From assembly GCF_055900595.2 (NCBI RefSeq), contig NZ_CM148325.1: a DNA stretch of 64,000 nt. The stretch is one strand, 5' to 3'. Position 1 is the stretch's first letter, and each line of letters starts with the position of its first letter. Under the pieces are notes generated by a model that was not told the origin of the DNA, searched no databases, and worked only from the letters and a program-made list of their open reading frames with translations. The position numbers and the translations under genes are program-made. Shown here one piece after another: positions 20,125 to 23,063 of this stretch.

Positions 20125-21741
20125 ATGCTCAGTCAAATTCAACGCTTTGGCGGCGCGATGTTCACGCCAGTGCTGCTGTTTCCCTTCGCCGGGATTGTGG
20201 TGGGTCTTGCCATTTTGCTGCAAAACCCGATGTTTGTCGGGGAATCACTGACCGATCCGAACAGTTTATTCGCGCAAATCGTACACATCATTGAAGAGGG
20301 CGGTTGGACGGTATTCCGTAATATGCCGCTGATTTTTGCTGTCGGTTTACCCATTGGCCTTGCTAAGCAAGCGCAGGGGCGTGCTTGTCTGGCGGTGATG
20401 GTGAGTTTCCTGACCTGGAACTATTTCATCAACGCGATGGGAATGACCTGGGGAAGCTACTTCGGCGTCGATTTCTCTCAGGACGCAGTGGCAGGTAGCG
20501 GGCTGACCATGATGGCCGGAATTAAAACCCTCGATACCAGCATTATCGGCGCGATTATCATTTCTGGCATTGTGACGGCGCTGCATAACCGTCTGTTCGA
20601 TAAAAAACTGCCAGTGTTTCTCGGCATTTTTCAGGGGACATCTTATGTGGTGATTATCGCCTTCCTGGTGATGATCCCATGCGCGTGGCTGACATTGCTC
20701 GGCTGGCCAAAAGTACAAATGGGGATTGAATCTCTGCAAGCGTTCCTGCGTTCGGCGGGTGCGCTTGGGGTCTGGGTTTACACCTTCCTCGAACGCATTC
20801 TGATCCCAACCGGTTTACACCACTTCATCTACGGACCGTTTATCTTTGGTCCGGCAGCTGTTGAAGGCGGCATTCAGATGTACTGGGCGCAGCATCTGCA
20901 AGAGTTCAGTTTGAGCGCCGAGCCGCTGAAATCGTTGTTCCCGGAAGGCGGTTTTGCCCTGCACGGTAACTCAAAAATCTTTGGTGCCGTGGGCATTTCT
21001 TTAGCGATGTACTTCACTGCTGCACCGGAAAATCGGGTAAAAGTGGCGGGCTTGCTGATCCCCGCAACCTTAACCGCCATGCTGGTGGGAATTACCGAAC
21101 CGCTGGAATTTACCTTCCTGTTCATTTCACCGTTGCTGTTTGCGGTACACGCCGTGCTGGCGGCCTCAATGTCGACCGTAATGTATCTCTTTGGTGTGGT
21201 GGGCAACATGGGCGGTGGTCTGATAGACCAGGTTTTACCGCAAAACTGGATCCCGATGTTCAGCAACCACGCGGATATGATGCTGACCCAAATCGCCATT
21301 GGGTTGTGCTTTACCCTGCTGTACTTCGTGGTTTTCCGCACCCTGATTCTGCAATTCAACATGTGCACGCCGGGACGTGAAGATGCGGAGGTGAAGCTCT
21401 ACTCAAAAGCCGAATACAAAGCCTCGCGAGGCCAAACTACCGCTGCAGAGCCCAAAAAAGAGCTGGAGCAGGCTACCGGCATCCTGCAAGCCCTGGGCGG
21501 GGTGGGCAATATCTCCAGCATCAACAATTGCGCGACGCGTCTACGTATTGCACTGCATGACATGTCACAAACGCTGGATGACGAAGTCTTTAAAAAGCTG
21601 GGAGCGCATGGCGTCTTCCGTAGTGGTGATGCCATTCAGGTGATCATTGGTTTGCATGTTTCCCAGCTGCGTGAACAGCTCGATAGCTTAATTAATTCTC
21701 ATCAATCAGCAGAAAAAGTTGCCATTACGGAGTCAGTATAA
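20125..21741 (+). CDS. glvC: PTS alpha-glucoside/arbutin-family EIICB component, intact
   Basis: ATG at 20125 preceded by aagagga RBS; N-terminal membrane EIIC domain and C-terminal EIIB domain with CATRLR active-site cysteine motif ([13 protein letters not shown]). ORF track TTG start at 20104 less likely. Confidence 0.85.
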
Positions 21742-23063
21742 TGACCAAATTCTCAGTGGTTGTCGCAGGCGGTGGAAGCACCTTTACGCCAGGCATCGTG
21801 TTGATGTTATTGGCGAATCAGGATCGTTTCCCGCTTCGCGCACTGAAATTTTATGATAACGATGGCGCACGGCAGGAAGTGATTGCCGAAGCCTGTAAAG
21901 TTATTCTTAAAGAGAAAGCGCCGGACATTGAGTTTAGCTACACCACCGATCCTGAAGTGGCGTTCAGCGACGTTGATTTTGTCATGGCGCACATTCGTGT
22001 CGGCAAATATCCGATGCGCGAACTGGATGAAAAAATACCGCTGCGCCACGGCGTTGTCGGTCAGGAAACTTGCGGACCCGGCGGAATAGCGTACGGCATG
22101 CGATCTATCGGTGGCGTCCTGGAACTGGTGGATTATATGGAAAAATATTCACCAAATGCCTGGATGCTCAACTACTCCAACCCGGCAGCAATTGTGGCAG
22201 AAGCCACACGTCGTCTGCGCCCGAACGCGAAAATCCTCAACATCTGTGACATGCCAATCGGTATTGAAAGTCGGATGGCGCAAATTGTTGGGCTGCAAGA
22301 TCGCAAACAGATGCGCGTGCGCTACTACGGTCTGAACCACTTTGGCTGGTGGACATCAATTGAAGATTTGCAAGGCAACGACCTGATGCCCCAGCTGCGG
22401 CAATATGTCTCTAAGCACGGTTATGTTCCACCGCAGCAAGATACACATACTGAAGCGAGCTGGAACGACACCTATGCAAAAGCGCGGGATGTCCAGGCAC
22501 TGGATCCGGATACATTGCCGAACACCTATCTGAAATATTATCTCTTCCCGGATTATGTCGTTCAGCATTCCAACCCTGAACATACCCGCGCGAATGAGGT
22601 GATGGAACATCGCGAGAAACAGGTTTTCGATGCTTGCCGCGCCATTACGGCGGCAGGAAATTCAGCGGCGGGCAAGCTGGAAATTGACGAACATGCGTCA
22701 TACATCGTCGATCTGGCGGCGGCAATTGCCTTCAACACTCAGGAGCGGATGTTGCTGATTGTGCCTAACAACGGGGCAATTCATAACTTTGATGATGAAG
22801 CGATGGTCGAGATCCCGTGTCTGGTCGGGCACAACGGACCAGAACCACTGGTGGTCGGCGATATCCCGCAGTTTCAGAAAGGGTTAATGAGTCAGCAAGT
22901 GGCGGTGGAAAAACTGGTCGTGGACGCCTGGGAACAGCGTTCATATCAGCACCTGTGGCAGGCGATTACCCTGTCGAAAACGGTACCGAGCGCCTCGGTC
23001 GCCAAAGCTATTCTGGATGAGTTGCTGGAGGCCAACAAAGCGTACTGGCCAGAGTTACGTTAA
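21741..23063 (+). CDS. glvA: 6-phospho-alpha-glucosidase (GH4 family, NAD/Mn dependent)
   Basis: 440-aa [26 protein letters not shown] (GH4 N-terminal Rossmann GGGS motif); start overlaps glvC stop. Confidence 0.85.

What the first reader, a model, noticed from the sequence alone, without database searches (positions are those of the whole stretch)
20125..23063. Intact glvC-glvA alpha-glucoside PTS/6-phospho-alpha-glucosidase operon, adjacent to divergent GntR regulator
As I recall, the K-12 glv locus is fragmented (separate glvC/glvB and a glvG pseudogene). Here a single 538-545-aa EIICB and a full 440-aa GH4 6-phospho-alpha-glucosidase are intact and translationally coupled, implying functional uptake of arbutin/alpha-glucosides in this strain; yidP (GntR/UTRA) convergent upstream is the likely regulator.
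Basis: partly seen in the sequence, partly recalled or inferred. Interest (0 to 1): 0.3.

Follow-up and report, generated by a model that had tools for sequence, protein, structure and literature searches.

The report
Intact E. coli alpha-glucoside PTS operon
This E. coli strain carries the undamaged, ancestral form of a two-gene sugar-uptake operon (glvC-glvA) that is broken in the laboratory strain K-12; about 30% of sequenced E. coli have the K-12-deleted part of glvA and RefSeq already annotates the genes, so the finding is correct but ordinary.

Summary
Window 20125..21741 encodes a 538-aa PTS EIICB and 21741..23063 a 440-aa GH4 6-phospho-alpha-glucosidase. The two genes are joined by a TAATG stop/start overlap. 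yidP (GntR/UTRA, 19113..19829, minus strand) is divergent, 295 bp upstream.

K-12 MG1655 differs from the window by two lesions only:
- A CAG->TAG amber at codon 369 splits glvC from glvB.
- A 508-bp deletion (window 22334..22841, between 8-bp repeats GAACCACT) truncates glvG.

Among 5,426 complete E. coli genomes:
- 4,384 carry the locus.
- 1,652 carry the segment deleted in K-12.
- 3,839 matched the CAG probe.
- 348 matched TAG; all 40 rows listed were K-12-type or laboratory-derived strains.

O157:H7, O145:H28, MRE162 and BL21 have both genes intact. GlvA is 89.7% identical, without gaps, to PDB 6DUX and 73% to B. subtilis GlvA. The EIICB passes the alpha-glucoside IIBC model TIGR02005. dN/dS is 0.02-0.05 for all three genes.

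The most likely function is Crr-dependent uptake and phosphorylation of alpha-glucosides (isomaltulose, isomaltose, maltitol, alpha-methylglucoside), then NAD+/Mn2+-dependent cleavage, with repression by YidP. Arbutin, a beta-glucoside, is not supported. This is already known, and interest is low.

The parts
19113..19829 (-). yidP: a 238-aa GntR/HutC-type regulator (wHTH plus UTRA effector domain). It is divergent from glvC and is the putative repressor of the operon.
   Evidence: Pfam GntR 6.8e-21 and UTRA 1e-30. 237/238 identical to K-12 YidP and 76% identical to the syntenic Enterobacter orthologue. dN/dS 0.012-0.027.
19830..20124 (.). 295-bp divergent control region between yidP and glvC.
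   Evidence: Sequence. The cross-genus alignment shows conserved blocks separated by two E. coli-specific insertions.
19946..19979 (.). Imperfect palindrome AGATGTCTAC-N-GTAGATCTCT, a candidate YidP (HutC-type) operator. This is inferred.
   Evidence: the repeat finder I1: 17-nt arms, 82% complementary. The GTCTA...GTAGA(C/T)C core is kept in E. coli, L003 and Enterobacter L006.
19996..20011 (+). CRP-like site CATGA-AAGCGA-TCACG (3 mismatches to TGTGA-N6-TCACA). This is inferred.
   Evidence: It lies in the most conserved intergenic stretch, CATGAA(A/T)GCGATCACGAATC, where only one position varies among the four sequences. The TGA-N6-TCA core was found. The centre lies about 61 bp upstream of the transcription start predicted from the -10-like hexamer.
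20052..20057 (+). -10-like hexamer TATCCT (TATnCT in all genera compared). This is inferred.
   Evidence: Alignment (TATCCT/TATTCT/TATGCT). The consensus sigma-70 scan found no full promoter here, as expected for an activator-dependent promoter.
20125..21741 (+). glvC (aglA-type): a 538-aa alpha-glucoside-specific PTS EIICB with no EIIA domain. It has the GITEP motif at residue 322 and the EIIB phospho-Cys at residue 469 (NNCATRLR).
   Evidence: Pfam PF02378 and PF00367. TIGR02005 957.5 bits against a cut-off of 607.3. Aligned over its full length to PtsG structures. 80% identical to Enterobacter alpha-glucoside IIBC proteins. Motifs located.
21229..21231 (+). Codon 369, CAG (Gln) here. K-12 has TAG at this codon, which splits the gene into 'glvC' and 'glvB'.
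   Evidence: The CAG probe matched 3,839 genomes and the TAG probe 348.
21741..23063 (+). glvA (aglB-type): a 440-aa GH4 NAD+/Mn2+-dependent 6-phospho-alpha-glucosidase. It has GGGS at residue 10, the CDMP motif at 169-172 and His200.
   Evidence: Pfam PF02056 and PF11975. PDB 6DUX E 2e-276 with 89.7% ungapped identity; 1U8X (B. subtilis GlvA) 73.2%. Motifs located.
22334..22841 (+). 508-bp segment of glvA that is deleted in K-12 and in most genomes that carry the locus. It is bounded by the 8-bp direct repeat GAACCACT (22334-22341 and 22842-22849).
   Evidence: The segment is present in 1,652 of 5,426 genomes.
23060..23953 (-). yidL: an AraC-family regulator, convergent with glvA. Its stop codon overlaps the glvA stop by 4 bp. 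It is probably tied to yidK/yidJ downstream rather than to glv.
   Evidence: yidL, yidK and yidJ are absent next to the Enterobacter operon and are retained where yidP-glvCA is deleted.

Best explanation
This is the intact, ancestral E. coli version of the enterobacterial aglA/aglB-type alpha-glucoside utilisation operon. GlvC (EIICB) takes up alpha-linked glucosides such as alpha-methylglucoside, isomaltose, maltitol and the sucrose isomers (isomaltulose and others). It phosphorylates the glucosyl O-6, receiving phosphate from PEP via EI, HPr and the general EIIA-Glc (Crr), because the protein has no EIIA domain of its own. GlvA, a GH4 enzyme that uses NAD+ and Mn2+ in a redox-elimination mechanism, cleaves the 6'-phospho-alpha-glucoside to glucose-6-phosphate plus the aglycone. 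The two genes are co-transcribed and probably translationally coupled. The divergent HutC-type GntR regulator YidP most likely represses the operon and is released by a sugar or sugar-phosphate effector, with cAMP-CRP activation. Gene integrity, family membership, the K-12 lesions, the population distribution and purifying selection are shown here. Substrate range, Crr dependence, YidP and CRP control and actual expression are inferred.
For: - Both ORFs are intact.
- Family assignment: TIGR02005 is above its cut-off and the Pfam domain pairs are present.
- GlvA is 89.7% identical, without gaps, to PDB 6DUX and 73.2% to B. subtilis GlvA 1U8X. GH4 phospho-beta-glucosidases score far lower, at E 1e-62.
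- GGGS, the CDMP motif and His200 are present in GlvA. GITEP and the EIIB Cys469 are present in GlvC.
- No EIIA domain is found.
- PMC5309279, citing Pikis 2006 and Thompson 2001, reports that Klebsiella AglA/AglB expressed in K-12 confer growth on alpha-methylglucoside, isomaltose, maltitol, turanose, maltulose and isomaltulose, and that AglA interacts with E. coli EIIA-Glc. The same paper found that a K-12 crr mutant expressing B. subtilis glvA/glvC could not grow on isomaltose, that K-12 alone does not grow on these sugars, and that K-12's own homologues are considered cryptic or truncated.
- dN/dS is 0.016-0.048 for glvC and glvA and 0.012-0.027 for yidP.
- The order yidE, GntR regulator, EIICB, GH4 is conserved in Enterobacter and in another enterobacterial genome.
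- yidP is deleted together with glvCA in genomes that lack the locus.
- A CRP-like site, a -10-like hexamer and a palindrome are conserved in the intergenic region.
Against: - No experiment on an E. coli strain with the intact locus was found in the searchable literature.
- The sigma-70 consensus scan finds no promoter in the intergenic region.
- E. coli is known for silent sugar operons such as bgl, asc and chb (my own knowledge), so intact genes do not prove a growth phenotype.
- The locus has been inactivated or lost repeatedly in the species. This shows it is dispensable in many niches.
- The CRP-like site has 3 mismatches to consensus, and YidP binding is untested.
Confidence: 0.8

Rival explanations
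1. The operon is intact but silent, like the cryptic bgl, asc and chb operons. The genes are whole, but the wild-type promoter is not expressed under natural induction, so the strain has no alpha-glucoside-positive phenotype unless a mutation activates the operon, for example loss of YidP.
For: No sigma-70 consensus promoter was detected in the 295-bp control region. The E. coli control region carries two insertions, about 70 bp in all, that other genera lack. BL21 and strain CT02 carry a 79-bp frameshifting deletion in yidP with glvCA intact, the kind of activating lesion seen in cryptic operons. The locus is frequently lost.
Against: dN/dS of 0.02-0.05 over dS of about 0.1-0.14 shows long-term purifying selection on all three genes. 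That is hard to reconcile with lasting silence. The CRP-like site and the -10-like hexamer are conserved across genera.
Confidence: 0.15
2. It is a beta-glucoside (arbutin) system, as the historical names suggest ('arbutin-like PTS IIB/IIC', glvG as '6-phospho-beta-glucosidase').
For: The only support is legacy names that some sources still carry, such as JGI's 'PTS system arbutin-like IIC component' and 'Arbutin specific PTS permease' in Touchon 2009.
Against: The EIICB passes the alpha-glucoside model TIGR02005 (957 bits). It reaches only 41-45 bits on the beta-glucoside and arbutin/salicin models, and only over the EIIB domain. GlvA is 89.7% and 73% identical to two solved phospho-alpha-glucosidases, against E about 1e-62 for phospho-beta-glucosidases. 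It carries the CDMP motif, which from memory marks the phospho-alpha-glucosidase branch of GH4.
Confidence: 0.03

Closest known systems
Klebsiella pneumoniae aglA/aglB (alpha-glucoside EIICB and phospho-alpha-glucosidase; Thompson et al. 2001, Pikis et al. 2006, as cited in PMC5309279). PDB 6DUX/6DVV is a '6-phospho-alpha-glucosidase'; that it comes from Klebsiella is from memory.
   Same: It has the same two-gene architecture, EIICB without EIIA followed by a 440-aa GH4 enzyme. GlvA is 89.7% identical, without gaps, to the 6DUX chain. The EIICB is about 80% identical to enterobacterial proteins named alpha-glucoside-specific IIBC. In Enterobacter the operon sits at the same chromosomal position, after ibpAB-yidE and next to a divergent GntR/UTRA regulator.
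   Different: It is the E. coli orthologue. Its control region holds two insertions, about 70 bp in all, that other genera lack. It is followed by convergent yidL-yidK-yidJ instead of the DUF202 genes. No biochemical or growth data for the E. coli proteins were found.
E. coli K-12 glvC-glvB-glvG (b3683, b3682, b4556)
   Same: It is the same locus with the same neighbours and is 97.0% identical in DNA. Six amino-acid substitutions plus the amber codon separate the 538 EIICB codons.
   Different: K-12 has a TAG at codon 369, which cuts EIIC before its last transmembrane helix, not at a domain boundary. K-12 also has a 508-bp frameshifting deletion in the glucosidase gene. The window has neither lesion.
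Bacillus subtilis glvA(malA)-glvR-glvC(malP) maltose/alpha-glucoside PTS operon (GlvA structure 1U8X)
   Same: GlvA is 73.2% identical over 437 residues, with the same NAD-binding, CDMP and His residues. The transporter is also an EIICB that works with E. coli EIIA-Glc.
   Different: The gene order differs, with the glucosidase first. From memory, the B. subtilis regulator is GlvR of the RpiR type rather than GntR/HutC.

Membership tests
PTS Glc-family alpha-glucoside-specific EIICB (NCBIfam TIGR02005) | Whole-protein score above the curated cut-off of the subfamily model | tested here: met
   957.5 bits against a cut-off of 607.3, covering residues 2-523 of 538 and profile positions 1-524 of 524.
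PTS Glc-family alpha-glucoside-specific EIICB (NCBIfam TIGR02005) | EIIC membrane domain followed by an EIIB domain with the phosphorylatable cysteine, and no EIIA domain | tested here: met
   PF02378 covers residues 10-346 and PF00367 covers 453-482, with no EIIA hit. The NNCATRLR motif places the Cys at residue 469, and GITEP lies at 322. The alignment to PtsG runs through the KTPGRED-type linker.
PTS Glc-family alpha-glucoside-specific EIICB (NCBIfam TIGR02005) | PEP- and EIIA-Glc-dependent transport and phosphorylation of alpha-glucosides | not testable with these tools
   Only the Klebsiella and B. subtilis homologues have been tested, in K-12 (PMC5309279).
GH4 6-phospho-alpha-glucosidase (GlvA/AglB/MalH type) | GH4 N- and C-terminal domains over the full length | tested here: met
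   PF02056 covers residues 6-184 and PF11975 covers 195-415. The ungapped alignment to 6DUX spans residues 1-439.
GH4 6-phospho-alpha-glucosidase (GlvA/AglB/MalH type) | N-terminal NAD+-binding glycine motif, the Cys-Asp (CDMP) motif and the His metal and catalytic residues. Residue roles are from memory of the B. subtilis GlvA structure paper. | tested here: met
   GGGS at residue 10, CDMP at 169-172 and His200 in YYGLNH. All are identical in 6DUX and 1U8X in the printed alignments.
GH4 6-phospho-alpha-glucosidase (GlvA/AglB/MalH type) | Closer to characterised phospho-alpha-glucosidases than to phospho-beta-glucosidases, alpha-galactosidases or alpha-glucosidases of GH4 | tested here: met
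   920 and 753 bits to the 6-phospho-alpha-glucosidase chains, against 215 bits or less to the 6-phospho-beta-glucosidases. The NCBIfam alpha-galactosidase and AglA models score far below their cut-offs.
GH4 6-phospho-alpha-glucosidase (GlvA/AglB/MalH type) | NAD+/Mn2+-dependent hydrolysis of 6-phospho-alpha-glucosides | not testable with these tools
   This needs an enzyme assay.
GntR family, HutC subfamily regulator (YidP) acting as the operon's local regulator | N-terminal GntR winged helix plus C-terminal UTRA effector domain | tested here: met
   PF00392 covers residues 3-64 and PF07702 covers 87-224.
GntR family, HutC subfamily regulator (YidP) acting as the operon's local regulator | Conserved divergent adjacency to the regulated operon, and shared fate with it | tested here: met
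   The regulator is divergent and adjacent in E. coli, L003/L004 and Enterobacter L005/L006. It is deleted together with glvCA in strain A36.
GntR family, HutC subfamily regulator (YidP) acting as the operon's local regulator | Binding to an operator in the yidP-glvC control region and release by an effector | not testable with these tools
   Only a conserved candidate palindrome at 19946-19979 is available.
K-12-type degraded glvCBG locus | Amber codon at EIICB codon 369 and the 508-bp deletion in the glucosidase gene | tested here: not met
   The window has CAG at 21229-21231 and holds the whole 22334-22841 segment.

The most novel reading that the evidence does not exclude
The yidP-glvC-glvA locus may be a polymorphic niche trait in E. 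coli. Strains with the intact form, roughly a quarter to a third of the species and including O157:H7, would grow on dietary alpha-glucosides such as isomaltulose (palatinose), isomaltose and maltitol, which K-12 cannot use. The trait has been lost at least three separate ways: a 508-bp deletion in most genomes that carry the locus, whole-locus deletion in about 19% of genomes, and a K-12-private amber codon. It may have been derepressed by a yidP frameshift in E. coli B and BL21. If so, BL21 and many wild strains already have the isomaltose/isomaltulose pathway that engineers have imported into K-12 from Klebsiella and Bacillus.
Probability: 0.55. Interest if true: 0.25.

Novelty: already known. 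Interest (0 to 1): 0.1.

Why it matters
The main value is in annotation and bookkeeping. The result shows that K-12's 'glvC', 'glvB' and 'glvG' are fragments of a normal two-gene operon, and it identifies the exact lesions: CAG->TAG at codon 369 and a 508-bp repeat-mediated deletion. It also corrects the legacy 'arbutin' and 'beta-glucosidase' labels.

It suggests why RefSeq calls the full-length 538-aa EIICB 'PTS sugar transporter subunit IIB'. That is the name of NF007255, a 161-position equivalog model that matches only residues 378-538.

In practice it predicts that many natural and industrial E. coli, including BL21, may already use isomaltose, isomaltulose and maltitol. That is relevant to fermentation feedstocks and to gut ecology, but it would not surprise a specialist.

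Tried and rejected
- **Frequency of the yidP 79-bp deletion.** I searched with the deleted segment. Only 3,118 genomes matched, at 90-95% identity, because this stretch of the window is too divergent for megablast seeding. The number is not usable; only the roughly 2-in-40 share of listed rows hints at the frequency.
- **Global alignment to strain A36.** The MAFFT alignment of the locus-less strain A36 to the window gave a meaningless scatter of gaps. I read the junction directly instead.
- **Promoter and terminator scan.** The sigma-70 and terminator consensus scan found no promoter in the control region and no terminator after glvA. The promoter proposal therefore rests only on cross-genus conservation.
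- **Primary literature.** Look-ups of Pikis 2006, of Hall/Pikis/Thompson 2009 and of a guessed PMC id all failed because the papers are not held. The roles of the GH4 motifs are therefore from memory.
- **Literature searches.** Searches for glvG, yidP and palatinose phenotypes in E. coli produced no experimental study of the intact E. coli operon. One relevant datum: the E. coli type strain DSM 30083T is negative for maltitol, alpha-methylglucoside, palatinose, turanose and arbutin. I did not check whether that strain carries the locus.
- **Horizontal acquisition.** I considered that the operon was acquired horizontally by this strain and rejected it. It sits at the same chromosomal position in other genera, its G+C content is ordinary, and a remnant of the yidP 3' end survives in genomes that lack the locus. 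The intact form is therefore ancestral.
- **Arbutin or beta-glucoside specificity.** Rejected; see the rival explanations.
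Full report
**What is there**

The window is the start of an E. coli chromosome: dnaA lies at 1..1404, followed by dnaN, recF, gyrB, then ibpA/ibpB and yidE. At the reported coordinates there are two + strand ORFs.
- The first runs 20104..21741. It is 545 aa from a TTG, or 538 aa from the ATG at 20125, which has GAGG 8 nt upstream. That ATG is the start used in K-12 and by RefSeq.
- The second runs 21741..23063 and encodes 440 aa.
- The stop of the first gene and the start of the second share one base (TAATG). GGAG lies 8 nt before the second ATG, so translational coupling is plausible.

Upstream, on the minus strand, lies yidP (19113..19829; 238 aa; GntR wHTH plus UTRA domain). 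It is divergent from glvC across a 295-bp control region. Downstream, the AraC-type gene yidL (23060..23953, minus strand) converges on glvA with a 4-bp overlap of the two stop codons.

**Identity of the proteins**

The first protein has PTS_EIIC and PTS_EIIB domains and no EIIA domain.
- It passes NCBIfam TIGR02005, the alpha-glucoside-specific IIBC model, at 957.5 bits against a cut-off of 607.3. It reaches only 41-45 bits on the beta-glucoside and arbutin/salicin models, and only over the EIIB domain.
- It aligns end to end with PtsG structures, including the last transmembrane helix and the TPGRED linker.
- It has the GITEP motif at residue 322 and the EIIB cysteine at residue 469.

The second protein has both GH4 domains.
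- It is 89.7% identical, without a single gap, to the solved 6-phospho-alpha-glucosidase 6DUX/6DVV, and 73.2% identical to B. subtilis GlvA (1U8X).
- GH4 6-phospho-beta-glucosidases are much more distant, at E 1e-62 or weaker.
- It carries GGGS at residue 10, CDMP at 169-172 and His200. From memory, these are the NAD-binding motif and the Cys/Asp/His catalytic and Mn2+ residues of GlvA. Also from memory, CDMP is diagnostic of the phospho-alpha-glucosidase branch of GH4.

**Comparison with K-12**

NC_000913.3 annotates glvC (368 aa), glvB (161 aa) and a glvG pseudogene between yidP and yidL. A nucleotide alignment of window 19100-24000 with that region shows 97.0% identity and only one internal indel, a 508-bp deletion corresponding to window 22334..22841.
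- The deletion lies between two copies of GAACCACT, at 22334-22341 and 22842-22849. K-12 keeps one copy, which is the signature of repeat-mediated deletion. It shifts the frame after YYGLNH.
- The glvC/glvB split is not a frameshift. It is a single CAG->TAG change at codon 369, window 21229-21231.
- Codon 369 lies before the last transmembrane helix of EIIC. The K-12 'IIC' and 'IIB' proteins are therefore fragments of a broken protein, not natural subunits.

**How common the intact form is**

Counts are among 5,426 complete E. coli genomes.

| Test | Genomes |
|---|---|
| Match to the 4-kb region | 4,384 |
| Carry the 508-bp segment that K-12 lacks | 1,652 |
| Match the 31-nt probe with CAG at codon 369 | 3,839 |
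| Match the 31-nt probe with TAG at codon 369 | 348 |

In the 31-nt probes every 28-mer seed spans the variable base. All 40 listed rows for the TAG probe are K-12-type or laboratory-derived strains. The two probes together account for 4,187 of the 4,384 genomes with the locus; the rest probably vary near the probe.

Sampled loci confirm these classes.
- O157:H7 H2495, O145:H28 RM13514 and MRE162 have 538-aa and 440-aa products.
- O104:H4 C227-11 has an intact EIICB but the 508-bp deletion in the glucosidase gene.
- BL21-AI and strain CT02 have both genes intact but a 79-bp frameshifting deletion in yidP, corresponding to window 19569..19647.
- Strain A36 represents the roughly 19% of genomes with no match. 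There yidP-glvC-glvA is deleted, leaving about 50 bp of the yidP 3' end next to yidE.

Touchon et al. 2009 list glvC among functions absent from phylogroup B2. In the even sample of listed rows, 13 of 40 cover the whole query and 2 of 40 carry the yidP deletion. That suggests roughly a quarter of complete genomes have all three genes free of large lesions. Small lesions were not screened. The window's own allele is 99.9% identical to the dog isolate Z0117EC0005 and about 97% identical to most others.

**The intact form is ancestral and selected**

The order yidR, yidQ, ibpA, ibpB, yidE, GntR regulator, EIICB, GH4 is the same in Enterobacter (L005/L006) and in another enterobacterial genome (L003/L004), with full-length genes. 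Those orthologues are 76% (YidP), 80% (EIICB) and 89% (GlvA) identical to the window's proteins.

Between the window and other E. coli, dS is about 0.10-0.16 while dN/dS is 0.035-0.048 for glvC, 0.016-0.032 for glvA and 0.012-0.027 for yidP. These are genes maintained by selection, not decaying remnants. K-12 glvC shows no excess of replacements, so its amber codon is recent.

**Mechanism**

Shown here are the intact domain architecture, the catalytic and phosphorylation residues, the operon structure and the family membership.

The rest is inferred from characterised homologues. Klebsiella AglA/AglB expressed in K-12 give growth on alpha-methylglucoside, isomaltose, maltitol, turanose, maltulose and isomaltulose. 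AglA is reported to work with the host EIIA-Glc (Crr), and a K-12 crr mutant expressing B. subtilis GlvA/GlvC could not grow on isomaltose. K-12 alone does not grow on these sugars, and its own homologues are described as cryptic or truncated (PMC5309279 citing Pikis 2006, Thompson 2001 and Reizer 1994).

By homology the window's operon should work in three steps.
- GlvC takes up and 6-phosphorylates alpha-glucosides, with phosphate passing from EI and HPr through Crr to Cys469.
- GlvA then cleaves the phospho-alpha-glucoside to glucose-6-phosphate plus the aglycone, using NAD+ and Mn2+.
- crr, ptsH and ptsI lie outside the window and were not checked.

**Regulation (inferred)**

An alignment of the control region across E. 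coli, L003 and Enterobacter shows three conserved elements.
- A palindrome, AGATGTCTAC...GTAGATCTCT (19946-19979), is a candidate HutC-type operator.
- The most conserved intergenic stretch, CATGAA(A/T)GCGATCACGAATC, varies at only one position among the four sequences. It contains a CRP-like site, CATGA-N6-TCACG (19996-20011).
- A -10-like hexamer, TAT(C/T/G)CT, lies at 20052-20057. It places the CRP-like centre near -61, a class I activation position.

E. coli has two extra blocks, about 70 bp in all, in this region, including a partial repeat of the operator arm. The generic sigma-70 scan finds no consensus promoter here and no terminator after glvA. YidP is listed as an uncharacterised GntR-family factor in the genomic SELEX review.

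**Rival explanations**

- The operon could be intact but silent, as with other cryptic E. coli sugar operons. This cannot be excluded without experiments, but it fits poorly with the strong purifying selection.
- The legacy arbutin or beta-glucoside assignment is contradicted by every test here.
- The E. coli type strain is negative for maltitol, alpha-methylglucoside, palatinose, turanose and arbutin. I did not check whether it carries the locus, so this neither supports nor contradicts the explanation.

**Verdict**

The observation and its main interpretation are correct. Three corrections apply: yidP is divergent, not convergent; arbutin is unsupported; and the arrangement is common rather than strain-specific. 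It is already annotated in RefSeq as a 538-aa PTS protein and a 6-phospho-alpha-glucosidase, and the crypticity of the K-12 genes has long been noted. Novelty: already known. Interest is low, at 0.1.

Noticed in passing
window 20125-21741; RefSeq loci L002, L007-L012: RefSeq/PGAP names the full-length 538-aa EIICB 'PTS sugar transporter subunit IIB'. That is the name of NCBIfam equivalog NF007255 (PRK09702), which is 161 positions long and matches only residues 378-538, the span of the K-12 GlvB fragment (364 bits against a cut-off of 321). The better descriptor, TIGR02005 (alpha-glucoside IIBC), also passes. A model that appears to be built on a K-12 fragment would thus be propagating a misleading name to thousands of intact proteins.
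   Followed up: partly
window 19569-19647 (yidP); L011 (BL21-AI), L012 (strain CT02): E. coli BL21-AI and strain CT02 have intact glvC and glvA but a 79-bp frameshifting deletion in the putative repressor gene yidP. This predicts constitutive expression of the operon in E. coli B. The frequency of the allele could not be measured reliably.
   Followed up: partly
window 21229-21231: The K-12 lesion that splits glvC from glvB is CAG(Gln)->TAG. From general knowledge, supE44/glnV44 amber-suppressor K-12 strains insert Gln at TAG and would therefore regenerate the wild-type EIICB sequence. glvG would still be deleted.
   Followed up: no
L013 (strain A36) 7017-7107, corresponding to window 19113-23063: In genomes without the locus, yidP-glvC-glvA is removed as one block between yidE and yidL, leaving about 50 bp of the yidP 3' end. 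About 1,040 of 5,426 genomes give no match to the region, and Touchon 2009 lists glvC as absent from phylogroup B2.
   Followed up: partly
window 48067-57744 (+), with 46618-47865 (+) and 57796-59493 (-): A 3,225-aa inverse autotransporter (intimin/invasin-type adhesin) has an IAT_beta domain, about 17-19 Big_1/Invasin_D3 repeats and a C-terminal Invasin_D4 domain. It is flanked by an MFS transporter and a 565-aa protein with an OmpR-type winged helix plus TPR repeats. As far as I recall it is not part of the K-12 map in this region.
   Followed up: partly
window 511-591 (-), 6068-6110 (-), 16240-16312 (+), 30988-31117 (+): Four Rfam matches at gathering score were found: AsdA (antisense RNA of dnaA mRNA), the ES036 sRNA, the ROSE_2 thermometer upstream of ibpA, and istR. 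All are expected for this E. coli region.
   Followed up: no
window 19849-19881 and 19909-19947: Relative to the orthologous control regions of Enterobacter and L003, E. coli has two extra blocks, about 70 bp in all. The second includes a direct repeat, GTGTTCGATGCTGTGTAC / GTGTTCACAGATGTCTAC (19918-19955), that partly duplicates one arm of the candidate operator.
   Followed up: no
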